Shown: positions 7,302-14,740, numbered from the stretch's first letter. The stretch is DNA of 63,515 nt from a virus (IMGVR_UViG_3300029258_001393:1-63515); one strand, 5' to 3'. Notes: a model not told the origin generated them from the letters alone. Translations and numbers: made by a program.

Positions 7302-7760
7302 ATGATAAAGTATAAATCAGGATATAAATATCAATTAGTCAAGGATTATGGAATCAAGACAAAAATTTTGGGATTTGAAGCCCACACAAGATATATTAAT
7401 CTATCAAAAGATGGTTTTTTATTAATTAAGGAATCTTATTGCTGGGATGGGCCTTCCGGTCCGACAATCGACACAAAGAATTTCATGCGGGGTTCTCTGA
7501 TCCACGATGCTTTATATCAACTGATAAGAGAGGGCTTGCTTGATTCTAAATGGCGAAGACAGGCCGACAAGGAGCTTAGAAAGGCCTGTCTTGAGGATGG
7601 CATGTCAAAGATTCGGGCATGGTATGTATATCATTGTGTGCGAAAATTTGCTGATTTTGCTGCGGACCCTAAGCACCGCAAACCAATTCTAACGGCCCCG
7701 GTGTTGCTGCTAATCAGCCTCTTTATTTTTGCCTGTCAGCATCCTTGGGCTTATCCGTAG
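7302..7760 (+). CDS. DUF1353-like phage protein
   Basis: The pattern YCWDGPSGPTIDT...LIHDALYQL...ADKELRKA resembles the DUF1353 family. Confidence 0.5.
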   Translation: MIKYKSGYKYQLVKDYGIKTKILGFEAHTRYINLSKDGFLLIKESYCWDGPSGPTIDTKNFMRGSLIHDALYQLIREGLLDSKWRRQADKELRKACLEDGMSKIRAWYVYHCVRKFADFAADPKHRKPILTAPVLLLISLFIFACQHPWAYP

Positions 7761-7763
7761 GGG

Positions 7764-7970
7764 CTACTCCGGTGGCCTCTTACCCCTTGCCTCCCATGCT
7801 TTCCATGCCCAAAATCTAACCACATTGAACCAATCTTTTTCATCGTCTGTTGTCGGTGTAAATTTATAGCCATTTTTCTTAAACCATCCTTCAAATTTTT
7901 TACTTTCTGAAAAGGTTTTTTCTTGTTCCGGTGTAAACTTGGCTTTCGCCAGCTTTTTTATTTCATCCAC
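7764..7970 (-). CDS. hypothetical protein (68 aa), last gene of the leftward operon
   Basis: GTG start with an AAGGGGGA SD. Convergent with 7302..7760; both end in TAG. Confidence 0.5.
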   Translation of the reverse strand: MDEIKKLAKAKFTPEQEKTFSESKKFEGWFKKNGYKFTPTTDDEKDWFNVVRFWAWKAWEARGKRPPE

Positions 7971-8051
7971 CCCATCCCCCTTTCATGTGGTTGTCATGTG
8001 TATCAACTGTATCATAAATAGCAAAACGGGTACACGCCTATGTGAATAGTT

Positions 8052-8810
8052 TTAACTGCCTTGTTTTTCAATTAATACCGGATACTCGTCACGCTTGAAC
8101 AGTTTTAGTTGGTTTTCTCCTACTTCTACACTAAGAGAAACTCCATACTTGCTTAAATAAATGGGTCCCAAACCCTTCCTTTTGCGTTCTCTATTACAAC
8201 TATTTTCCAATATTTTTGCCTTGATAAATAATTTCGGATGGTCGTTTCTAAGGTTTCGCCAATCTGCATGGGTAGAGTTGAAACAAATATAACAAGCAGA
8301 TTTTGGAGGGATAGGGAATCCATGCCTTTTTATAATTCTTTTACATTCGGCCCTATCAATTCCAACTTCTATCAATGGGAATTTATCTTTAATCCCTTTA
8401 GAGGGTTTCCAGTTTTTAATCCTGTTTTTTTCTCCTGCATCAATGCCAATAAAATTTATACAGGGCTTTGAAAAATAATTTTCTTTTGGTTTAATCTTAA
8501 ATTTTTGTGAACAATCCCTATACATTCTTGAAGGTATGGTTTTTTTTGACAAATAAAAACTATACATTAAACCATTAAATTCTCTTTGTGCTGGGAATCC
8601 ATGTTCCATTGCATTAATAATAGTTATTGGTTGTTTGTTGTTTGTTTTTAAAAACTGATTCACTCTTTTTAAAAACTGATATGTTTCTGGTCTTTCACAT
8701 CCAGTATCGACAAAAACAGACTCAAATTTATATCCTTGATCTTTAAGGTAAAGTTGTAAAGCATAAGAATTAACCCCTCCACCATGACTAAGATATTTTT
8801 TCAATTCCAT
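8052..8810 (-). CDS. PAPS-reductase-family PP-loop ATP-pyrophosphatase (paralog 1)
   Basis: PP-loop SHGGGVNS, VFVDTGCERPETYQF, RDCSQKFKIKP, KSACYICF. No SD. In frame with the upstream MTase fragment across one TAG. Confidence 0.75.
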   Translation of the reverse strand: MELKKYLSHGGGVNSYALQLYLKDQGYKFESVFVDTGCERPETYQFLKRVNQFLKTNNKQPITIINAMEHGFPAQREFNGLMYSFYLSKKTIPSRMYRDCSQKFKIKPKENYFSKPCINFIGIDAGEKNRIKNWKPSKGIKDKFPLIEVGIDRAECKRIIKRHGFPIPPKSACYICFNSTHADWRNLRNDHPKLFIKAKILENSCNRERKRKGLGPIYLSKYGVSLSVEVGENQLKLFKRDEYPVLIEKQGS

Positions 8811-8825
8811 GTGGTTTCCATGTGG

Positions 8826-9344
8826 CTATTTGGTGGCTTTTTCCTGTAAATTTTCCACCCCATACCCAAAAATGTCATTATTATTTCTATTCGCATGAGC
8901 TTGTGTAAAGGTTGTCCCGTTTTGTTTCGCCTTTTGAACATCTCCCCTAATCTTTTGCCCAACAATCTCTCTTTCAACCCCTGCCGCCTTATCAATCGCC
9001 TTTGAAATATTATGCGATTTCGGAAATCCAGAACCATAAAGCCACATCATACAATCCCTGATTTCCCATCCTGCATCTTCAATGGCACACATTAATCTGT
9101 GGTGGGTACGGGTTCCACCAAAGGCTAAGAGAAATCCACCAGGCTTGATTATCCGAATGGCGTTTTTCCAAGTTTCAATTTGAAAAGCTACGCCGGAAGC
9201 ATCCCATTTCTTACCCATAAAGCCTAACTCATATGGTGGGTCAGTTATAATGCAAGTGAAATGATTGTCTGGAAACGATTTCATAACTTCGTTGCAATCA
9301 CCCTGATAAATTATTCCTTCTGACTGTTGGAAATACGGTCTAAT
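8826..9344 (-). CDS. N6/N4 DNA methyltransferase N-terminal half (motif IV DPPY only), probable ATT start
   Basis: IIYQGDCNEV-MKSFPDNHFTCIITDPPY...FGGTRTHHRL...GSGFPKS. No FxGxG AdoMet motif before TAG 8826-8828. The conserved IYQGDC lies upstream of the first ATG (9284). Confidence 0.65.
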   Translation of the reverse strand: MRPYFQQSEGIIYQGDCNEVMKSFPDNHFTCIITDPPYELGFMGKKWDASGVAFQIETWKNAIRIIKPGGFLLAFGGTRTHHRLMCAIEDAGWEIRDCMMWLYGSGFPKSHNISKAIDKAAGVEREIVGQKIRGDVQKAKQNGTTFTQAHANRNNNDIFGYGVENLQEKATK

Positions 9345-9552
9345 CTTTCCTCCCCCCTCCCATATGCGCCATCAATTTCCCGATCAACCATTTTAATGTT
9401 TATGAATTGTTTATTGACCCCTTTGCAGACCCTTGATATACGGGATGCAATGCGGGGGTTCAACCCGTCATTTCTTAGAACTTATCCATTAAATTTCAGT
9501 ATCTTATCTTGTTCAGATACCCCATTTTGGTTTATGAAAGGTTTATGAAGGA

Positions 9553-10203
9553 TTAATGCCATAATTTTAACTGCTTTGTTTCTTCTTCTTCTTTAAATGC
9601 AACCTCATCCATTTCTAAATATCTTTTATATAATTCTGAAAAATGCAACCTTAGTTTATCAATTCGTTTTTGACCTGCTTTGGGACAACAAAAACATGAC
9701 ACTCGACTAAAAACTTTATAAAGTCCATCCCAATCATACCCAAGAGAATAGCAATATTTTAGAGTGTCTTTTTCACTAAACCCGTATTCAATCAGCGGGA
9801 ATCTAACGGGCCATTTTCTATTAGTTATAGATGGTTGTTTTGTTCGGTGTGTCTCATCGGTTGTAAACCCGATACATTCAATCGTGCCTTTCAATGCCCT
9901 AAATATCTTTTTGCAATTATCTCTTTTTGAAGCAGCACACCATCCACCTTTTGAGTGAGGCCAACCATACCGAGCTAACAATTCACCAAAATGTCGATAG
10001 TTGCGAATCCGAATTGTTTTTATGCCAGTATTTTTTTCGACCTTCTGAATATGCGCTTCCATTTGGGGAAAATCCCATCCGGTTTCAAAATATATAACAT
10101 GGGAAATGGGTTCATTTTTTTCGATCATTAAATGAATCATGGCTGTTGAATCCTTGCCGAATGATGAACTAACAATTACACATTTTTTGCAATACGGTTT
10201 AAT
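9553..10203 (-). CDS. PAPS-reductase-family PP-loop ATP-pyrophosphatase (paralog 2), probable ATT start
   Basis: The PP-loop SFGKDS is encoded upstream of the first ATG (10140). YFETGWDFPQ, GFTTDETHR, SCFCCP. GGAGG sits 7 nt before ATT 10203. Confidence 0.75.
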   Translation of the reverse strand: MKPYCKKCVIVSSSFGKDSTAMIHLMIEKNEPISHVIYFETGWDFPQMEAHIQKVEKNTGIKTIRIRNYRHFGELLARYGWPHSKGGWCAASKRDNCKKIFRALKGTIECIGFTTDETHRTKQPSITNRKWPVRFPLIEYGFSEKDTLKYCYSLGYDWDGLYKVFSRVSCFCCPKAGQKRIDKLRLHFSELYKRYLEMDEVAFKEEEETKQLKLWH

Positions 10204-11246
10204 TCCACAACCTCCCCTGACAACTCTTTAATTTTCTCCGTAACCTTCAAAGCCCTTGCCTGCTTACCCTGAAAATACCTCTCAAACGCTGCTGAGACAT
10301 GCCCTGTTGCGTCTTTAACCTGTTCGGGGGTGCATATCCTACCCAAAGCCGTAACGGTGCTGTGGCGTGTTCCACCGTACAAATCAACCCCTTCAATGCC
10401 GAGGTTATGACAGGCACGTTTCCAGAATTTATAGAGATAACCTGGGCCGAATCTGGATCCGTTCTTTACTCCCTTACTATGGCAATGCCGAAAAAAGTAG
10501 AGATCGGGCATTGACGTAGGGAAAGTATTGAGGTGCTGTATATCTTCTTGTAAAAGGTAAATAATTTTGGGTGTTTTTTCCTTTGGATCGGGTATAAGAA
10601 TACCGCCCATCCCAAGACTAATTTGTTTTTCCCGTATGGATATAAGCTCCCCTGGACGCACAGAAACGTATGTTGAAAGAAACTTAATCCCGAGCCAAAT
10701 CTTGGGATTAATGCTATACGATATTTTCCGCACCTCACTAATAATGCTCTGTTGTGTTCCAACATCAATTATATTCCTCCATCCCAAAGTATAGGGCACT
10801 TCCGGTATATCCGGCATAGGGATTCTTTCACGCTTCGATACCCACTTAAAAAACTCTGACAGGCATATTTTGATATTGTGCCGGGTCTTGTCGGATATCC
10901 CTTCAATGCCATAAAGAAAGTCTTCAATCGTGCCAAAATTAATATCTTTGACGTTCTTCCCTTGCCATTTTCCAGCCGCCCTTGCCATGTAGTTCTTTAG
11001 GTTGCTGTAATATCGAGGTCGTACCTGTTTTTCTTTAACCTCAAGCCACTTCTTAGCCAGATTCTCAAAGCCAAGCGGATTGATTTTTTGCCAGTCTCTT
11101 GGGTCAAACGTGCCGTTGTCCGTTTGAACCCTAATGTAATTAAGAAACCTCTCAGCGTCTATTAAGTGCTTGAATGATTTGGTTAATTTACGACCAAACC
11201 GAACCTGATACCCACCCCTGTAATTTGGATATATTCGTCCTTTCAT
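10176..11246 (-). CDS. int: tyrosine recombinase (phage integrase)
   Basis: C-terminal catalytic signature LYGGTRHSTVTALG and ATGHVSAAFERYF. ATG 11246 has an AGGGGGGA SD. The longer track ORF is an unsupported extension. Confidence 0.85.
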   Translation of the reverse strand: MKGRIYPNYRGGYQVRFGRKLTKSFKHLIDAERFLNYIRVQTDNGTFDPRDWQKINPLGFENLAKKWLEVKEKQVRPRYYSNLKNYMARAAGKWQGKNVKDINFGTIEDFLYGIEGISDKTRHNIKICLSEFFKWVSKRERIPMPDIPEVPYTLGWRNIIDVGTQQSIISEVRKISYSINPKIWLGIKFLSTYVSVRPGELISIREKQISLGMGGILIPDPKEKTPKIIYLLQEDIQHLNTFPTSMPDLYFFRHCHSKGVKNGSRFGPGYLYKFWKRACHNLGIEGVDLYGGTRHSTVTALGRICTPEQVKDATGHVSAAFERYFQGKQARALKVTEKIKELSGEVVELNRIAKNV

Positions 11247-11283
11247 ACACAGATCCCCCCTTTGATTTGAGTCTAAGAGGGTA

Positions 11284-11526
11284 TCATATATCGTATTTGG
11301 GCGTGGTGTCAAATTTAGTCCTCTTCTTTTTATTTGCAAACCGACCAACCTCCCCAGTCAGCCGGCTTACAGTGCCGTCTTGCTCCCCTTTCTGTAAAAT
11401 CATCAACCCGGGCCTGTTATGGGTTAGGCGATAAGAAGGTTGATGCCCGCCTTTTCGAGGGGGCTTGGTATCAACTCGGCTTGCGATAGCGGTATCTCCG
11501 GCCATACCGTTAATTCGCAGGGTCAC
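11284..11526 (-). CDS. small basic protein upstream of int (possible directionality factor)
   Basis: GTG start overlaps the upstream stop (GTGA). Lys/Arg-rich. No recognisable HTH. Confidence 0.35.
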   Translation of the reverse strand: MTLRINGMAGDTAIASRVDTKPPRKGGHQPSYRLTHNRPGLMILQKGEQDGTVSRLTGEVGRFANKKKRTKFDTTPKYDI

Positions 11527-11708
11527 GGACGGCGCGCCCGTTGGAGGTGCGGGTTGAAAAATCGTTTATACCAAGGCTCTTTTTGCTCAAATATCGCTGT
11601 TTTATAAGCATGGAAATTTGACCGGATGGTATCAATCCGGCCTTTTTGCCTGGGTGCGAATACGGCGTTCTCTAAGGTTTCGAGCTTTGCTATTTGATCG
11701 GGGGTCAT
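11523..11708 (-). CDS. hypothetical protein (61 aa)
   Basis: AAGGAG SD. Packed between the MTase and the 11526 ORF. Confidence 0.5.
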   Translation of the reverse strand: MTPDQIAKLETLENAVFAPRQKGRIDTIRSNFHAYKTAIFEQKEPWYKRFFNPHLQRARRP

Positions 11709-11716
11709 GTTGCTCC

Positions 11717-12574
11717 TTAGTTGAATAATTTTAACTGACGTGTTTCCTTTTCAATTCTCGGTATTCCTATATCGTCAATATAAACCCTGGATAGTTCAAT
11801 CATGATAAATTTTCGACTATACTTATGCGCTACGATTGCCGTTGTCATTGCCCCGCCGAAGGGGTCAAGTACAACCTTTCCTTTTGGACATCCGGCAAGG
11901 ATAGCTACTTCTGGCAACCTCGGCGGAAATGTGGCAAAATGCGCTTCAGAAAATCCCTTCGGGTTAATGTCCAGCCCCACAAGCTCATCATCGGCAAAGA
12001 TCGCCCCGAATGGCGGTTCAAGAGATTCAAAGAATAGGTCGGTGTTGCGGAAGTTGCGGCCCAAAGGATTGTATTCACGGTGTTTATCAAGTGATACTTT
12101 TCCACCAGACCAACCTTGATTATTCTGTCTCGGTCCAATTCCATCTTTACCCTTAAAACCGTTTGGCCTGTTTAAATCTTTATGCTTTACCCGTATCGCC
12201 TCCATATCAAAATAATATTTGGCCGATTTCGTAAGCAAAAAAACATACTCCAAGGCACTCGCCGGACGGTCCGAGCAACTTTCTGGCATGGCGGATTTTT
12301 TTACCCAGGGAATTCCAGACCGCAAATACCAACCATCGGCTTGAAGCGCAAGGGCTACACGCCAGGGGATTCCGCATAGGTCTTTGGGTTTGAGGCCCAT
12401 TGGAGCCTTTCTTGATTTTCCGCTTGCCTGACCCCTATTCCTAAAATTACCGCTTTTATCAACAGTATTCTCAACCTGTGGCCCTGCTTGACTTGCATAA
12501 CTATCGCCCATATTCAACCAAAGCGTTCCATCATCCCTCAACACCCTGCGGACCTCTCGGAAGATTTCAACCAT
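11717..12574 (-). CDS. N6/N4 DNA methyltransferase, C-terminal 285-codon ORF (motif I present; catalytic motif IV lies upstream of an in-frame TAG)
   Basis: DGTLWLNMGDSY, SGIPWVKK, HFATFP, VLDPFGGAMTTA. The frame continues upstream to GTG 12940 with a single TAG at 12815-12817. Confidence 0.85.
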   Translation of the reverse strand: MVEIFREVRRVLRDDGTLWLNMGDSYASQAGPQVENTVDKSGNFRNRGQASGKSRKAPMGLKPKDLCGIPWRVALALQADGWYLRSGIPWVKKSAMPESCSDRPASALEYVFLLTKSAKYYFDMEAIRVKHKDLNRPNGFKGKDGIGPRQNNQGWSGGKVSLDKHREYNPLGRNFRNTDLFFESLEPPFGAIFADDELVGLDINPKGFSEAHFATFPPRLPEVAILAGCPKGKVVLDPFGGAMTTAIVAHKYSRKFIMIELSRVYIDDIGIPRIEKETRQLKLFN

Positions 12575-12814
12575 GTGTTTAATAAATAATTCCGGTGTGG
12601 GTTCGAGTCCGAGACAACCACGCCATGCTCCGCAGAGTTGGCAGAATTGGGTTTTAACAAGTTCGCAATTTACTCCTTTGTTTGTTGCCTGCTTACTATT
12701 TTTGTTTTTTACATCATCGGGGTGCCGTTGCCGCCTTGGATCACATTCCCCCCAAACATGCTGACAATCTGAATCACCATCCCAAATTGTCGGCGGTAGG
12801 CCATAATCTCTCAG

Positions 12815-12940
12815 CTAAAGGCCCCAGTAGGGTGGGCTTGTGATTACACAATGCACACTCTCTGAGGCCATCTCCTTCAGCACGTCTAAAACATGCCCTT
12901 GATAAATCTTATTTCCGTCTTGTTGCCAGTATGTTTTCAC
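12815..12940 (-). CDS. N-terminal 41 codons of the same methyltransferase (contains SPPY), ending at the in-frame TAG
   Basis: GTG 12940 with an AGAGG SD. Translation is KTYWQQDGNKIYQGHVLDVLKEMASESVHCVITSPPYWGL-TAG. Confidence 0.6.
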   Translation of the reverse strand: MKTYWQQDGNKIYQGHVLDVLKEMASESVHCVITSPPYWGL

Positions 12941-12969
12941 TAATTTACCTCTATCCCGGTTCCGTTAAA

Positions 12970-13353
12970 TTAAAGCGATAATGCCATTTGCTTCTCATTA
13001 ACGATTACCGGGTCTGTCTTAACCTTCGTTTGTGGCAACGGATAATATGATAACTCGGTTATGACACCGACGACCTCTAAATTTCCACTTAGGTTAACCT
13101 TGACCGATATCCCAAGTTTGCAATCACTGTTTTCGTAGGCCCGAACAATTCTCTCCCAATCGGTTTCAATAATGTTGCTTACTTCCGCTACTACCATGTT
13201 TTTAGTTTTATCCATTGACATGCTCCTTAGATTTTTGTTTGCACATTCAAGGCAAATTCCATATTCTCCACCCTTAGCCTTGCAAGCACCCGGCTTCCCG
13301 CATTGCTTACATTTCACATCTTGGTTGATTGTCATATTATAGACTTTTCCCAT
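12970..13353 (-). CDS. Zn-ribbon protein (127 aa)
   Basis: CKQCGKPGAC...CLEC four-Cys motif at the N-terminus. Confidence 0.55.
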   Translation of the reverse strand: MGKVYNMTINQDVKCKQCGKPGACKAKGGEYGICLECANKNLRSMSMDKTKNMVVAEVSNIIETDWERIVRAYENSDCKLGISVKVNLSGNLEVVGVITELSYYPLPQTKVKTDPVIVNEKQMALSL

Positions 13354-13365
13354 GATCGTCCTTTC

Positions 13366-14115
13366 TTACTGGCTCTTGGTGTTAGGAGACTCTCTTGCTA
13401 TCCAATTTGTTTTGGTTTTGTCGAAAAACGGCACCCCCGACTCTTGGCATTGCTCGTATAAATCTCTTATCCATTCGGGCTTGCATTCTCGTTTGCCGGG
13501 TCCAGTTTCGGGACCGACGATTACCCAGTCAAGGCCAACGCCAGGAGCACCCCAAAAATCATCAAGATCGACAGGTTCAAGCATCGGTTCAATACTTACA
13601 AACCGGACAGCGGCTGGAATTTGAAGCAAGGTAGGTATGCGCTCATCGGCACGTTTTTGATTTTCTGCGGTTACGCCGAGCCATATATTTGTCCATCTTG
13701 CAAAGTGTTCTGGGTGCGGAGAATTTGCAATTCGTTCGGGCCGCTTGGTGAGCAATAAATAAGTGTGTGGTTGTTTATTGAACAGCGCAGAAATTGGATA
13801 AAAGGCATCGTAAGCTATATTTGCAAAGATGCTATCAAGTTGTTTGTCGGTTACATTTTCGTGGAATAGATCCCCCATGGAACTAACAAAAATTTTCTTC
13901 GGTGTCTTTGGCAACTTATCAAACACGCTCATATCCACACCGATTTTCCCGGTCCATCCGTTCTTATCAACAACATCCTGATATTTCGGAACTCCCATAC
14001 ACTTCAACCGCCATGCCATTTTTTCGGCATAGCAGTTTTGACACCCGTCACTGATTTTTGAGCACCCCACAATCGGGTTTATGGTTTCGTCGCACCATTC
14101 TATTTTGGTTGGCAT
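13366..14115 (-). CDS. phage Gp37/Gp68 (DUF5131) family protein
   Basis: Characteristic N-terminus MPTKIEWCDETINPIVGCSKISDGCQNCYAEKMA, then LLTKRP and VSIEPMLEP. Confidence 0.8.
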   Translation of the reverse strand: MPTKIEWCDETINPIVGCSKISDGCQNCYAEKMAWRLKCMGVPKYQDVVDKNGWTGKIGVDMSVFDKLPKTPKKIFVSSMGDLFHENVTDKQLDSIFANIAYDAFYPISALFNKQPHTYLLLTKRPERIANSPHPEHFARWTNIWLGVTAENQKRADERIPTLLQIPAAVRFVSIEPMLEPVDLDDFWGAPGVGLDWVIVGPETGPGKRECKPEWIRDLYEQCQESGVPFFDKTKTNWIARESPNTKSQ

Positions 14116-14200
14116 TATCCCACCTTTTATTTCTTACTGTCTCTCTAATAATAATTTATATTTTTTGACATCGCACATGCCGATCAATCCGGCGTGATCC

Positions 14201-14521
14201 TCAAGTGCGTCTTGAATATACTCTTGCCTGTCTTTCTGATTTAATCCACCTCAATCCATGTTCCTCCAAAATATGACAGCGGTAACACAAAATTCTTGTA
14301 TTCTCCTCAGAATCATCGCCACCACTTCCCCTTGACTTGATATGGGCTAAATGAGCCGTATTGAATACCGTGTCACCGTCTAATCTGACCCACCTACCGC
14401 ACTCAGCGCATAGGCCATGTTGTTTTTTCCAGACTTTTTTTCTAAGGTTAGAGTAAGCCCTACCTGTTAGCTTGATTCTCTTCTTTTTGGGCATTGGCTT
14501 TGGCGTGGTATAGGAGTGCAT
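14201..14521 (-). CDS. HNH endonuclease
   Basis: CAECGRW...HLAHIKSRGSGGDDSEENTRILCYRCH. Confidence 0.8.
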   Translation of the reverse strand: MHSYTTPKPMPKKKRIKLTGRAYSNLRKKVWKKQHGLCAECGRWVRLDGDTVFNTAHLAHIKSRGSGGDDSEENTRILCYRCHILEEHGLRWIKSERQARVYSRRT

Positions 14522-14740
14522 TTATTTATACCATCCTTCTCCGTCACTGATAGCCTGCCCCTGTAATTTAGGGTTAAATATCCTATGCACTCTTGGTAAC
14601 ACATGATAATGATTAGGACGTAACAACAAATTATGCTTGCGGTCTTTCACTGTTGTACCGTCACAATTAACTCTCATGCCGTTTGGTTTAAAATATGCTG
14701 ACCTTTTAAAATTCTTAAATCTTGAGTGACTTCCGACCAT
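14522..14740 (-). CDS. hypothetical protein (72 aa)
   Basis: Abuts the HNH gene with no spacer. Basic. Confidence 0.45.
   Translation of the reverse strand: MVGSHSRFKNFKRSAYFKPNGMRVNCDGTTVKDRKHNLLLRPNHYHVLPRVHRIFNPKLQGQAISDGEGWYK

What the first reader, a model, noticed from the sequence alone, without database searches (positions are those of the whole stretch)
8052..14115. DNA-modification island with two diverged PP-loop enzymes, two methyltransferases and a Gp37/Gp68 protein wrapped around the integrase
The PAPS-reductase fold is the ATP-pyrophosphatase fold used by DndC and SspD (DNA phosphorothioation) and IbrA. Here two paralogues, visibly more AT-rich than the flanking genes, sit with two N6/N4 methyltransferases, a three-Cys Gp37/Gp68 protein and an HNH nuclease. 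No cysteine desulfurase, ParB or other known partner is visible. The combination, the clamp-like tails and the unusual translational gating (TAG, ATT) suggest a non-canonical phage DNA modification or anti-restriction system rather than simple methylation.
Basis: inference. Interest (0 to 1): 0.7.

Follow-up and report, generated by a model that had tools for sequence, protein, structure and literature searches.

The report
Stop-hop methylase in phage modification island
A temperate phage carries a patchwork of DNA-modifying genes; its main methylase is split inside its catalytic motif by a six-base stop-containing insert that ribosomes probably hop over, and four of the proteins end in a peptide that looks like a docking tag for the host's sliding clamp.

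Summary
One "methyltransferase" is only a 172-codon 5' fragment. The HNH gene lies outside the given coordinates. The genes do not form a conserved multi-gene system, because their relatives occur in unrelated contexts.

1. The in-frame TAG in the intact methylase (MTase#2) is one of ten cases in 9 datasets. In each, a 6-9 nt insert starting with a stop codon splits catalytic motif IV (SPPYWGLRDYG) of related phage methylases. Removing the insert restores one ORF. All three stop codons occur, and +7/+8 inserts shift the frame. Eight of ten have a strong RNA hairpin ending at the codon before the stop (3/174 in intact relatives). Both gene halves are under purifying selection. HNH genes lie within 1.5 kb in 8/8 assessable cases. 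This fits a programmed short translational bypass ("stop-hop"), analogous to T4 gene 60/MobA.

2. The "clamp-like tails" are a conserved acidic-QxxL[F/W] or QxxLxL motif near the C-terminus of four unrelated families here.

The two PP-loop enzymes are SspD-like by profile. Their chemistry is untested.

The parts
11717..12940 (-). MTase#2. A beta-class N6A/N4C DNA methyltransferase with a GTG start. It is 405 codons once the 6-nt insert is removed, and ends ...IEKETRQLKLFN*.
   Evidence: Pfam PF01555 5.7e-34 on the downstream part. Full translation with a single in-frame stop. Motif I reads DPFGGAMTT. Gap removal gives one 405-codon ORF.
12812..12817 (-). Six-nt micro-insert TAG CTG inside catalytic motif IV (SPPYWGL[*L]RDYG). 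TAG is at 12815-12817. The candidate landing codon CTG is at 12812-12814. The take-off codon CTT is at 12818-12820.
   Evidence: Nine related genes carry analogous stop-first inserts in the same 7-codon stretch.
12820..12869 (-). RNA hairpin whose 3' arm overlaps the first base of the take-off codon CTT (12818-12820) and stops 2 nt before the TAG. It is a candidate 5' driver of the bypass.
   Evidence: MFE -28.1 kcal/mol and z -3.67 for the 60 nt upstream. The 121-nt fold has z -3.08, with 0/200 shuffles as stable. The same feature is in 8/10 interrupted genes against 3/174 intact relatives. There is a compensatory pair in the 5-sequence alignment.
14201..14521 (-). HNH endonuclease. It is a candidate homing endonuclease associated with the interrupted methylase.
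   Evidence: Pfam HNH 1.1e-6. A homologue lies next to the interrupted methylase in L114. HNH genes lie within 1.5 kb of 8/8 assessable interrupted loci, against no HNH family with more than one member in 147 neighbour ORFs of 30 intact loci.
13366..14115 (-). DUF5131 (Gp37/Gp68) protein with a Cys triad CX6CX2C. This family is a subgroup of the radical-SAM superfamily.
   Evidence: Pfam 1.5e-69. PHROG 2045 1e-76. PADLOC PDC-M41B/M30B ~1e-58. NCBIfam rSAM_mob_pairA 2e-17, below its cut-off. Listed in RadicalSAM.org (PMC9477430).
12970..13353 (-). A 127-aa protein with an N-terminal Zn ribbon and an alpha/beta domain. It has no known family and ends NEKQMALSL* (a hexapeptide clamp-like motif).
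   Evidence: No Pfam or PHROG hit. 32 relatives were found, and the only invariant column is the Q of the tail motif. The AF2 model has pLDDT 87 with a low-confidence tail. No fold match in PDB or BFVD.
11523..11708 (-). 61-aa ORF between the methylase and the integrase. Function unknown.
   Evidence: No family hit.
10176..11348 (-). Integrase. The original gene call was 356 aa, from 11246.
   Evidence: PHROG 1 1.3e-19. Gene call in L001.
9553..10203 (-). PAPS#2, an SspD/DndC-like PP-loop protein. The PP-loop SSSFGKDS lies upstream of the first ATG (10140). The ORF is open from an ATT at 10201-10203, 7 nt after GGAGG. It ends ...EEEETKQLKLWH*.
   Evidence: Homologues start M..(I/V)I.SSSFGKDS.
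10182..10188 (-). A_AAA_AAT heptamer in the integrase frame, two codons before its stop. A -1 shift here enters the PAPS#2 frame. The GTG at 10206-10208 aligns with the GTG start of the L007 homologue.
   Evidence: This is inference only.
8826..9344 (-). MTase#1 fragment. It has only the N-terminal catalytic half (DPPY) of a beta-class methylase, lacks motif I, and has only ATT (9342-9344) as a possible start.
   Evidence: PF01555 positions 3-90 of 221. 60% identity to BSP18 methylase residues 14-146 of 409, with no C-terminal half in the window.
8052..8810 (-). PAPS#1, an SspD-like PP-loop protein (PP-loop SHGGGVNS). It has an in-frame ENQLKLF 14 residues from its end and lacks its family's terminal PPCxCGL.
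   Evidence: PADLOC SspD 9e-31. PHROG 424 1e-36. Family C-termini.
8038..8070 (-). An out-of-frame (-1) relic of a second tail, KTRQLKLFT*, overlapping the PAPS#1 stop. At the nucleotide level it is similar to the tails of MTase#2 and PAPS#2.
   Evidence: (repeat family D1).
9330..9356 (-). Copy of a 27-nt translation-initiation repeat (GGAGG...ATTARACCGTATT). The other copy is at 10189-10215. The pair brackets the PAPS#2 cassette.
   Evidence: 2 matches against 0.01 expected.

Best explanation
The region is the integrase-proximal, accessory end of the leftward early operon of a temperate lambda-like phage. The phage has an O-type initiator, NinB and a recombination exonuclease, and no polymerase or clamp of its own. 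The region is a mosaic of separately acquired DNA-modification cassettes, not one conserved system.

(a) The methylase and its insert. The working methylase is MTase#2. Its catalytic motif IV is split by the 6-nt insert TAG-CTG. The most likely way full-length enzyme is made is a short translational bypass, a 'stop-hop'. Peptidyl-tRNA-Leu leaves CUU when UAG enters the A site. Refolding of the strong hairpin just 5' pulls the mRNA through the ribosome. The tRNA re-pairs on CUG six nucleotides downstream, and decoding resumes at AGA. This restores the canonical SPPYWGLRDYG. The stop-hop would keep the yield of methylase low or conditional. By analogy with T4 gene 60/MobA, the insert probably also makes the gene immune to a neighbouring HNH homing endonuclease that targets the conserved motif-IV DNA.

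(b) The tails. MTase#2, both SspD-like PP-loop enzymes and the Zn-ribbon protein carry an acidic QxxL[F/W] or QxxLxL peptide near the C-terminus that matches the bacterial beta-clamp-binding motif. They are probably recruited to host sliding clamps on replicating phage DNA and act co-replicationally.

(c) The PP-loop enzymes. They most likely adenylate and modify DNA, either by phosphorothioation-like chemistry or by interfering with Dnd/Ssp-type defence. They would use host sulphur-mobilising partners.

What is shown and what is inferred:
- Shown: the sequence anatomy, the recurrence, the hairpin, the purifying selection, the HNH association, the motif conservation and the profile similarity.
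- Inferred: the hop itself, clamp binding, the chemistry and endonuclease immunity.
- MTase#1 is a dead fragment. PAPS#2 has no canonical start and may be expressed weakly, from ATT or by a -1 shift, or not at all.
For: Bypass:
- Ten genes from 9 datasets carry a 6-9 nt insert beginning with TAA, TAG or TGA, always within SPP^YW^GL^RDYG.
- Removing the insert yields single ORFs of 405-621 codons.
- The +7 and +8 inserts shift the frame, so readthrough cannot rescue them.
- Take-off and landing codons are identical in 4 cases and match in 2 of 3 bases in 4 more.
- The 60 nt ending at the take-off codon fold with z -3.6 to -7.4 in 8/10 cases.
- Among 174 distinct intact relatives, the median is z -0.54 and only 3 reach z<=-3.6, even taking the best of three positions.
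- A 9-bp helix is shared by five sequences, with one fully compensatory column (CG/AU/GC).
- pN/pS is 0.24-0.33 in the 35 codons upstream of the stop between the window and its three closest relatives. Those relatives (60-62% identity) are all interrupted, each differently.
- Ordinary lesions in relatives, including prophage copies, are scattered elsewhere in the gene.
- HNH genes are near 8/8 assessable interrupted loci, against at most one member per HNH family in 147 ORFs around 30 intact loci.
- The window has no tRNA gene, so no suppressor tRNA, and it uses the standard genetic code.
- Precedents: synthetic stop-hops and T4 gene 60 (PMC5009743); the MobA cassette (bioRxiv 10.1101/2022.08.31.505936); phiHau3 short gaps (PMC10732093).

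Clamp motif:
- The tails in the window.
- Methylase relatives against other long ORFs of the same loci: strict motif 9/107 vs 1/1419, loose 27/107 vs 18/1419, hexapeptide 15/107 vs 2/1419.
- PAPS#1 family 56/82, PAPS#2 family 20/120, against 1/82 and 0/120 in an internal control window.
- In the Zn-ribbon family the motif's Q is the only invariant column.
- The phage has lambda-type replication genes and no clamp or polymerase.

PP-loop chemistry: SspD/BrxP profile hits, and a phage PAPS-Dam fusion that counters Dnd.
Against: - No protein product has been observed, so the hop is inferred from comparative features only.
- The window's landing codon, CUG, is synonymous with the take-off codon CUU but not identical to it.
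- Two of the ten inserts (L062, L128) have no matching landing codon, and two (L028, L029) lack a significant hairpin.
- The ten cases fall into about five lineages. The HNH association and the hairpin statistics are therefore partly non-independent.
- The HNH genes belong to different Pfam families and sit at different positions. One locus (L172) has a nested HNH gene but an intact motif IV.
- Other lesions in the same island fit gene decay: a truncated MTase#1, no canonical start for PAPS#2 or MTase#1, and PAPS#1 without its family's terminal CxC.
- In the PAPS#1 family the QxxLF motif sits 12-14 residues from the end, in front of a conserved PPCxCGL. It might be part of the enzyme fold rather than a docking peptide.
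- No Ssp/Dnd partner genes are present.
Confidence: 0.55

Rival explanations
1. Gene decay. The TAG insert, the missing start codons, the truncated methylase and the shortened PAPS#1 tail are disabling lesions in a dispensable accessory region. On this view MTase#2 is a pseudogene.
For: Several lesions cluster in about 5 kb. Methylase relatives in bacterial genomes show ordinary frameshifts and stops. MTase#1 is clearly a remnant.
Against: - Ten independent sequences are interrupted only within a 7-codon stretch, always by an insert that starts with a stop.
- A hairpin specific to interrupted genes ends at the take-off codon.
- No second lesion occurs in 405-621 codons, and pN/pS is 0.24-0.33 upstream of the stop.
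- The three closest relatives are all interrupted, each differently.
Confidence: 0.15
2. The micro-insert exists only to disrupt the recognition site of a homing HNH endonuclease, or is a repair scar. The methylase is sacrificed, or it works as two pieces, and no ribosomal hop occurs.
For: The HNH association. In L062 a GTG follows the stop, and HNH genes are nested inside some of these methylase genes. Split-gene solutions exist for MobA/MobE targets.
Against: - The insert always begins with a stop, and in 8/10 cases a matching or near-matching landing codon follows. An immunity insert has no need of either feature.
- The hairpin and the purifying selection on both halves argue for continued translation of a joined product.
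- A restart codon in the right frame is absent in most cases.
- The split would fall inside the catalytic loop.
Confidence: 0.15
3. Stop-codon readthrough or reassignment. The TAG is decoded as an amino acid, giving an enzyme with two extra residues in motif IV.
For: The window insert and five others are in frame (+6 or +9).
Against: - All three stop codons occur. One insert has two consecutive stops (L114). Three inserts are +7 or +8.
- The window has no tRNA gene, so no suppressor tRNA.
- TAG reassignment is not supported by ORF statistics.
- Extra residues would sit inside the (S/D/N)PP(Y/F/W) catalytic loop.
Confidence: 0.07
4. The PP-loop enzymes, methylases, DUF5131 and HNH act together as one non-canonical hypermodification or anti-restriction pathway.
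For: The genes are co-located on one strand. The clamp-like tails shared by four proteins suggest a common site of action. The PP-loop proteins have SspD-like profiles. DUF5131 appears in candidate defence systems.
Against: - Neighbourhoods are not conserved.
- One methylase is a fragment.
- GC content and flanking repeats indicate separate acquisition.
- DUF5131 and HNH lack the tail motif.
Confidence: 0.15
5. The C-terminal QxxL[F/W] peptide is not a beta-clamp ligand. It docks on another hub (a phage or host protein), or it is an intrinsic structural or catalytic element.
For: In the PAPS#1 family the motif is internal to a conserved tail, EExQxxIFxxDEYPPCxCGL. No binding data exist. No paper in the library links these families to the clamp.
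Against: - The motif matches QL[SD]LF/QLxLxL (consensus recalled from memory).
- It sits at or near the C-terminus, after acidic linkers, in four unrelated folds.
- The tail of the Zn-ribbon model has low confidence, as expected of a linear motif.
- The phage depends on the host replisome.
Confidence: 0.3

Closest known systems
Phage T4 gene 60 translational bypass with the MobA homing-endonuclease cassette
   Same: - A non-coding insert sits inside a highly conserved catalytic region of a phage DNA enzyme.
- A stop codon immediately follows the take-off codon, and there is a matched landing codon.
- A 5' stem-loop is present.
- The element is associated with an HNH-type homing endonuclease, and the insert blocks that endonuclease's cleavage site.
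- Insertions recur at the same location.
   Different: - The gap here is 6-9 nt rather than 50 nt.
- The gap contains no Shine-Dalgarno sequence, and there is no take-off stem-loop around the stop.
- The host gene is a DNA methyltransferase, not a topoisomerase.
- The HNH genes are of several families and are not in a fixed position.
- There is no sequence homology to the gene 60 cassette, and no Rfam family matches.
Synthetic 'stop-hops' in E. coli (Weiss et al. 1987, as described in PMC5009743)
   Same: Matched codons flank a stop, so that 9 nt specify one amino acid. CCU-UGA-CCU, CCA-UAG-CCA, UGG-UGA-UGG and CUU-UAG-CUG are exactly this design.
   Different: Those were engineered constructs with low efficiency. 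The 2016 review states that no natural in-frame stop-hop was known. The elements here are natural, recurrent and carry an upstream hairpin.
Candidate UUA-triggered bypass of 7-10 nt inserts in Streptomyces phage phiHau3-type terminase genes (PMC10732093)
   Same: Short frame-shifting inserts lie at conserved junctions of an essential phage gene. Local RNA structure brings the landing codon close. A regulatory role has been proposed.
   Different: The trigger there is a rare sense codon, not a stop. The gene and the hosts are different. No endonuclease link has been reported.
SspD / DndC / BrxP PP-loop enzymes of DNA phosphorothioation, and the Vibrio phage PAPS-Dam anti-Dnd protein
   Same: The same PP-loop ATP-pyrophosphatase fold by profile (SspD 9e-31 and 8e-12; BrxP 2e-7). 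Phage-borne, next to a methylase, in a variable anti-defence region.
   Different: - No SspA/B/C or DndA/B/D/E genes are present.
- The proteins here are short, single-domain proteins of 216-252 aa.
- PAPS#1 lacks its family's terminal CxC, and PAPS#2 lacks a canonical start.
- Neither is fused to a methylase.
- They carry a clamp-like tail that has not been described for those systems.
Beta-clamp-binding-motif proteins (Pol II, Pol IV, UmuC, Hda, MutS; phage Mu MuC)
   Same: A C-terminal pentapeptide or hexapeptide of the type QL[SD]LF / QLxLxL (consensus from memory). There is phage precedent for using the host clamp (bioRxiv 10.1101/2025.01.04.631326, listed).
   Different: The carriers here are DNA-modification enzymes and a small Zn-ribbon protein. 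The library holds no report of bacterial or phage methylases or PAPS-reductase-like proteins with such a motif. Functionally, the nearest analogue is eukaryotic DNMT1-PCNA (from memory).
DUF5131 / 'radical SAM mobile pair protein A'
   Same: A strong Pfam match and a Cys triad. The family occurs in mobile elements and in candidate defence systems.
   Different: The score is far below the NCBIfam equivalog cut-off (63 bits against 355). No 'pair B' partner was identified. There is no link to the other island genes in 12 related loci.

Membership tests
Beta-class N6A/N4C DNA methyltransferase (PF01555) | Catalytic motif IV (D/N/S)PP(Y/F/W), contiguous | tested here: inconclusive
   MTase#2 has SPPY, but the extended motif SPPYWGL|RDYG is split by TAG-CTG. 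It is contiguous only if 6 nt are bypassed. MTase#1 has an intact DPPY.
Beta-class N6A/N4C DNA methyltransferase (PF01555) | AdoMet-binding motif I (FxGxG-type), C-terminal to the target-recognition region | tested here: met
   MTase#2 has VLDPFGGAMTT, and the Pfam match runs to position 218 of 221. MTase#1 does not meet this feature. Its match ends at profile position 90 of 221, and tblastn finds no C-terminal half in the window.
SspD/DndC-type DNA phosphorothioation PP-loop ATPase | Profile match and a PP-loop (SGGxDS-like) | tested here: met
   PADLOC SspD scores 9.1e-31 (PAPS#1, loop SHGGGVNS) and 8.2e-12 (PAPS#2, loop SSSFGKDS, upstream of the first ATG).
SspD/DndC-type DNA phosphorothioation PP-loop ATPase | Partner genes (SspA/DndA cysteine desulfurase, SspB/C or DndB/D/E) in the locus | tested here: not met
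   There are no PADLOC hits to them among the island ORFs. No Aminotran_5, ParB or Dnd families appear in the other 61 ORFs.
SspD/DndC-type DNA phosphorothioation PP-loop ATPase | Phosphorothioate in the DNA | not testable with these tools
   This needs LC-MS/MS or iodine cleavage of virion DNA.
Assimilatory PAPS reductase CysH | Equivalog-level profile score and the C-terminal ECGLH catalytic tail | tested here: not met
   TIGR00434 scores 22.7 bits against a cut-off of 165, and TIGR02057 scores 20.9 against 254. The PAPS#1 family ends in PPCxCGL, but the window protein ends PVLIEKQGS.
Programmed translational bypass (gene 60 type / stop-hop) | A stop or hungry codon in the A site directly after the take-off codon | tested here: met
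   The window has CTT-TAG. All ten inserts begin with a stop.
Programmed translational bypass (gene 60 type / stop-hop) | Landing codon matching the take-off codon, with decoding resuming to give the conserved protein sequence | tested here: inconclusive
   In the window, CUU goes to CUG (same amino acid, 2 of 3 bases) and resumption restores SPPYWGLRDYG. The match is exact in 4 of 10 cases, 2 of 3 bases in 4 of 10, and absent in 2 of 10.
Programmed translational bypass (gene 60 type / stop-hop) | A stimulatory mRNA structure tied to the site and specific to interrupted genes | tested here: met
   z -3.67 in the window; 8/10 interrupted genes against 3/174 controls; one compensatory column.
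Programmed translational bypass (gene 60 type / stop-hop) | Evolutionary maintenance of both ORF parts | tested here: met
   Single ORFs after gap removal, and pN well below pS on both sides of the insert.
Programmed translational bypass (gene 60 type / stop-hop) | A joined protein product lacking the gap-encoded residues | not testable with these tools
   This needs expression and mass spectrometry.
Beta-sliding-clamp-binding motif proteins | A QL[SD]LF / QLxLxL-type peptide at an exposed terminus, conserved among homologues | tested here: met
   The peptides are QLKLFN*, QLKLWH*, QMALSL* and QLKLF(+14). Enrichment is 20- to 100-fold over control ORFs, and the Q is invariant in the Zn-ribbon family.
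Beta-sliding-clamp-binding motif proteins | Physical binding to DnaN | not testable with these tools
   The host is unknown. The best methylase relative in bacterial genomes is only 43% identical and the hosts of the relatives are diverse. No complex prediction was available.
Radical SAM superfamily (DUF5131 subgroup) | Pfam DUF5131 match and a Cys triad for a 4Fe-4S cluster | tested here: met
   PF07505 scores 1.5e-69. The triad is C18-x6-C25-x2-C28, which is not the canonical CX3CX2C spacing.
Homing HNH endonuclease paired with an immunity insert (MobA-like) | An HNH gene adjacent to the interrupted target gene, more often than next to intact alleles | tested here: met
   8/8 assessable interrupted loci, against at most one member per HNH family in 147 ORFs around 30 intact loci. 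The lineages are not independent, and the HNH families differ.
Homing HNH endonuclease paired with an immunity insert (MobA-like) | The endonuclease cuts the uninterrupted allele and spares the interrupted one | not testable with these tools
   This needs a cleavage assay.

The most novel reading that the evidence does not exclude
The TAG in this methylase belongs to a previously undescribed family of natural short-gap bypass elements ('stop-hops' of 6-9 nt). These are driven by a hairpin that sequesters the take-off codon. They are embedded in catalytic motif IV of phage DNA methyltransferases and spread or are maintained together with HNH homing endonucleases. If so, this is a second, independent invention of the T4 gene 60/MobA solution. 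In the same island, methylase and SspD-like enzymes are tethered to the host sliding clamp by a shared C-terminal peptide. DNA methylation, and possibly phosphorothioation, of phage genomes would then be replication-coupled.
Probability: 0.45. Interest if true: 0.9.

Novelty: new variant of a known kind. Interest (0 to 1): 0.8.

Why it matters
Efficient programmed bypassing has long rested almost entirely on T4 gene 60. The 2016 recoding review states that no natural in-frame stop-hop is known.

- A set of ten diverse, minimal elements would give a compact, mutable system for studying how ribosomes take off, slide and land. The elements share a defined take-off codon, a stop, a landing codon and a 5' hairpin.
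- The set would also let one test whether endonuclease immunity drives the evolution of recoding.
- It warns annotators that 'pseudogenised' phage methylases split at SPPY may be functional.
- If the C-terminal peptide binds the clamp, it would show that phages couple DNA modification to replication, as eukaryotes do with DNMT1-PCNA.
- It would also give a handle on the long-unexplained phage 'PAPS reductase' genes, which are often mis-scored as sulphur-metabolism genes.

Tried and rejected
- TAG reassignment. Rejected: freeing TAG raised the >=100-codon ORF count and coverage less than freeing TGA or TAA did, so the standard code was kept. Among the related inserts all three stop codons are used.
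- Suppressor tRNA. None: the window has no tRNA gene.
- Close phage relatives of the island. INPHARED gave only short methylase matches, which was not informative beyond showing that BSP18 has a full-length homologue of MTase#1.
- Single-sequence search for PAPS#1 loci in viral contigs. Nothing found.
- Exact pattern CCNCCNTRRCCNTAYTGGGG in viral contigs. It recovered only the two methylase cases already known plus chance hits.
- Quasi-palindrome templating as the origin of the inserts. By eye, the inserted bases are not the complement of the flank of the opposite arm.
- Restart after the stop as a general solution. Only L062 has a start codon in the right frame.
- Rfam. No family matched in the window or the island.
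- Promoter and terminator scan. Counts were at chance level.
- Fold of the Zn-ribbon protein. The model is confident but has no significant match in PDB or BFVD.
- PDB entry 21fy 'PptA' is the closest solved relative of both PP-loop proteins (E 1e-6 and 2e-3). I found no paper describing it.
- Host identification through the methylase. It failed: the best match in bacterial genomes is 43% identical and lies in diverse phyla.

Full report
**Context**

The window is a rotation of a 63,594-bp contig, ena:ERZ27256770:k141_1602689. Its record ends fall at window position 12070, inside the methylase gene, so the contig was read as circular. It encodes a lambda-type O initiator, NinB, a recombination exonuclease, a gpA-type terminase and podophage adaptor proteins. 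There is no polymerase, no clamp and no tRNA. The genetic code is standard. All island genes lie on the minus strand, at the integrase end of the leftward early operon.

**Checking the observation**

Pfam, PHROG and PADLOC confirm the following genes:
- two PAPS-reductase/PP-loop proteins, at 8052-8810 and at 9553-10140 (extendable to 10203);
- N6_N4 methylase matches at 8826-9284 and at 11717-12574;
- DUF5131 at 13366-14115;
- an HNH gene at 14201-14521, which is outside the stated range;
- an integrase at 10176-11348.

The two PP-loop proteins are barely alignable to each other (E=0.023). Both are AT-rich, with GC 0.320 and 0.352 against 0.440 for the window.

Three corrections are needed.
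1. The first 'methylase' is a fragment. It is 60% identical to residues 14-146 of the 409-residue Bacillus phage BSP18 enzyme. It then stops, has no AdoMet-binding motif I, and has no C-terminal half elsewhere in the window.
2. The PP-loop of PAPS#2 (SSSFGKDS) lies upstream of its first ATG. The open frame contains no ATG, GTG or TTG, only an ATT 7 nt after a GGAGG. MTase#1 has the same defect.
3. The second methylase is complete only if the in-frame TAG at 12815-12817 is dealt with.

**The TAG**

The canonical motif IV of this subfamily is SPPYWGLRDYG. The window reads SPPYWGL-[TAG CTG]-RDYG, a 6-nt insert.

I fetched relatives from viral contigs (80 loci), metagenomes (80) and bacterial genomes (67), plus one locus found through PAPS#2. 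Nine more genes, which with the window come from 9 datasets, carry a tiny insert in the same 7-codon stretch:

| Locus | Sequence at the insert | Shift |
|---|---|---|
| L028 | CCT[TGACCT]TAT | +6 |
| L029 | CCA[TAGCCA]TAC | +6 |
| L128 | CCG[TAGCTG]TAC | +6 |
| L062 | CCA[TAAGTGCTT]TAC | +9 |
| L113 | TGG[TGATGG]GGC | +6 |
| L114 | TGG[TGATGA]GGA | +6 |
| L119 | TGG[TGACATGG]GGC | +8 |
| L149 | TGG[TGACATGA]GGC | +8 |
| L007 | TGG[TAGATGT]GGA | +7 |

Common properties:
- Every insert begins with a stop codon, and all three stop codons are used.
- Three inserts shift the frame.
- The codon before the stop reappears at the end of the insert exactly in four cases. It reappears in two of three bases in four more, including the window (CUU...CUG).
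- Deleting the insert gives one ORF of 405-621 codons in every case.
- The three closest relatives of the window gene (60-62% identity) are all interrupted, each differently.
- Between the window gene and these three relatives, pN/pS is 0.24-0.33 in the 35 codons upstream of the stop.
- Other lesions in about 227 relatives (at most 11) are scattered along the gene, typically in prophage copies.

**RNA structure at the insert**

The 60 nt ending at the take-off codon fold into a hairpin whose 3' arm ends at or within 1-2 nt of that codon. The window values are -28.1 kcal/mol and z -3.67. Eight of the ten genes have z between -3.6 and -7.4.

The end of the stem moves with the take-off site: after SPP, after SPPYW, or after SPPYWGL.

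In 174 distinct uninterrupted relatives, allowing the best of the three positions, the median z is -0.54 and only three reach -3.6.

Five 'after-W' sequences share a 9-bp helix. In it, the third base of the first Pro codon covaries with the base opposite (CG, AU, GC). Rfam has no matching family.

A hairpin that can only form by pulling the take-off codon out of the ribosome is the kind of 5' element proposed to drive forward bypassing in T4 gene 60. I know this proposal only from the abstract of a 2024 preprint and from section headings of another paper.

**Endonuclease link**

All eight interrupted loci with enough flank have an HNH gene within 1.5 kb, and some have two. In the window it lies 1.26 kb upstream. 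In L114 a homologue of the window HNH lies 0.7 kb downstream. In L062, L028 and L128 the HNH gene is nested inside the methylase gene.

In 147 ORFs around 30 randomly chosen uninterrupted loci, no HNH family is among the 25 most frequent, so each has at most one member.

This recalls the MobA cassette of T4. There the bypass insert blocks self-cleavage in a highly conserved region that could not tolerate extra residues.

Caveats: the ten cases form about five lineages. The HNH genes belong to three Pfam families. L172 has the nested HNH gene but an intact motif IV.

**Reading of the TAG**

I take the window site as a programmed stop-hop. Peptidyl-tRNA-Leu would leave CUU with UAG in the A site, re-pair at CUG and resume at AGA.

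Synthetic stop-hops of exactly this design work in E. coli. The 2016 recoding review says no natural one is known. Short 7-10 nt candidate bypasses have been proposed for Streptomyces phage terminases.

The main rivals are pseudogene, readthrough and pure immunity scar. Each is weakened by the stop-first rule, the frame-shifting members, the hairpin or the purifying selection. None is excluded without protein data.

**The tails**

The tails in the window are:
- MTase#2 ends IEKETRQLKLFN*.
- PAPS#2 ends EEEETKQLKLWH*.
- PAPS#1 has GENQLKLF 14 residues from its end, plus an out-of-frame relic KTRQLKLFT* (8038-8070).
- The Zn-ribbon protein ends NEKQMALSL*.

The motif is a family property in each case:

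| Family | With motif | Control |
|---|---|---|
| Methylase relatives, strict motif | 9/107 | 1/1419 other long ORFs of the same loci |
| Methylase relatives, loose motif | 27/107 | 18/1419 |
| Methylase relatives, hexapeptide | 15/107 | 2/1419 |
| PAPS#1 family | 56/82 | 1/82 in an internal window |
| PAPS#2 family | 20/120 | 0/120 in an internal window |

In the 24-sequence alignment of the Zn-ribbon family, the Q of the motif is the only invariant column. The modelled tail has low confidence.

The pattern matches the bacterial beta-clamp-binding consensus (QL[SD]LF, QLxLxL; recalled from memory). The phage relies on the host replisome. I therefore infer clamp tethering of these enzymes. The library holds no report of this.

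In the PAPS#1 family the motif precedes a conserved DEYPPCxCGL end, present in 58/82 members but lost in the window protein. An intrinsic structural role is therefore possible there.

**The PP-loop enzymes and DUF5131**

- Both PP-loop proteins hit the SspD model, and PAPS#2 also hits BrxP. They fall far below the CysH cut-offs.
- No Ssp or Dnd partner genes are in the window.
- A phage PAPS-Dam fusion counters Dnd in Vibrio. BREX-4 BrxP is linked to phosphorothioation, judging from the title and abstract of PMC12914056.
- A DNA-directed role is therefore the best guess, but the chemistry is open.
- DUF5131 is a radical-SAM-superfamily subgroup found in candidate defence systems. It shows no conserved linkage to the other genes.

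**Mosaic origin**

A 27-nt initiation-region repeat (GGAGG...ATTARACCGTATT) brackets the PAPS#2 cassette; 0.01 matches are expected by chance. A 20-nt repeat brackets PAPS#1, and a 28-nt repeat marks the three tail-encoding 3' ends.

Because of the initiation-region repeat, the two ATT 'starts' are copies of one sequence, not independent evidence for ATT initiation.

For PAPS#2 there is an alternative route. The GTG at 10206-10208 aligns with the start of the L007 homologue. A -1 shift on A_AAA_AAT (10182-10188) would then give MELNRIAKKCVIVSSSFGKDS.... This is unresolved.

**Verdict**

The island is real but is an assemblage, not a single system. Its interest lies in the recurrent, structured, endonuclease-associated stop-insert in methylase motif IV. 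It also lies in the shared clamp-like peptide on four protein families. Both are new variants of known kinds. Both rest on comparative evidence and are directly testable.

Noticed in passing
L062:4788-5657(+); L028:4863-5327(-); L128:1431-1934(-); L172:2633-3274(-): HNH endonuclease genes are nested inside the variable Zn-ribbon region of related methylase genes, either in another frame or antisense. The methylase reading frame stays open across the whole insertion of several hundred nt.
   Followed up: partly
window 10189-10215 and 9330-9356; 8805-8824 and 7981-8000: Short direct repeats bracket the PAPS#2 and PAPS#1 cassettes. The second repeat contains a tandem CCACATGRAA decamer just upstream of two start codons. 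They look like cassette junctions or shared regulatory sites.
   Followed up: partly
window 10182-10208 (-): A GTG in the integrase frame aligns with the start codon of the L007 PAPS homologue. An A_AAA_AAT heptamer two codons before the integrase stop would, by a -1 shift, join that frame (or the integrase itself) to PAPS#2.
   Followed up: partly
window 9350-9372 (-): A G6 run lies just upstream of the MTase#1 ATT. Two out-of-frame ATGs before it would come into frame with a 1-nt change in the run. This could be a phase-variation-like or frameshift site.
   Followed up: no
window 8038-8070 (-): An out-of-frame copy of the tail (KTRQLKLFT*) overlaps the PAPS#1 stop. Relative to the MTase#2 tail sequence there is a 4-nt deletion next to an A5 run.
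   Followed up: partly
P0122-P0202 (PAPS#1 family): Most members end in EExQxx[IL]FxxDEYPPCxCGL. The terminal CGL recalls the ECGLH catalytic tail of CysH. The window protein and two relatives (P0130, P0137) lack it.
   Followed up: partly
window, one of the 61 ORFs outside 7700-14600: There is a Pfam hit to the Acb2/Tad1 hairpin domain (3.6e-6), an anti-CBASS/Thoeris sponge family. I did not determine which ORF carries it.
   Followed up: no
window 61185-61739 (+): A class I SAM-dependent methyltransferase (Methyltransf_23/11/25/31) sits among late genes. It is unrelated to the island methylases.
   Followed up: no
window 51380-60247 (+): A single 2955-residue ORF follows a 1451-residue ORF in the structural region of a podophage-like genome.
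   Followed up: no
PDB 21fy chain C: A solved structure named 'PptA' (270 aa) is the closest solved relative of both PP-loop proteins (E 1e-6 and 2e-3). No paper on it was found in the library.
   Followed up: partly
L115, L122, L149 methylase C-termini: Several relatives end ...IPRIEKATKQKGWNRFK instead of ...KQLKLF. This looks like a frameshifted or mutated version of the tail motif.
   Followed up: no
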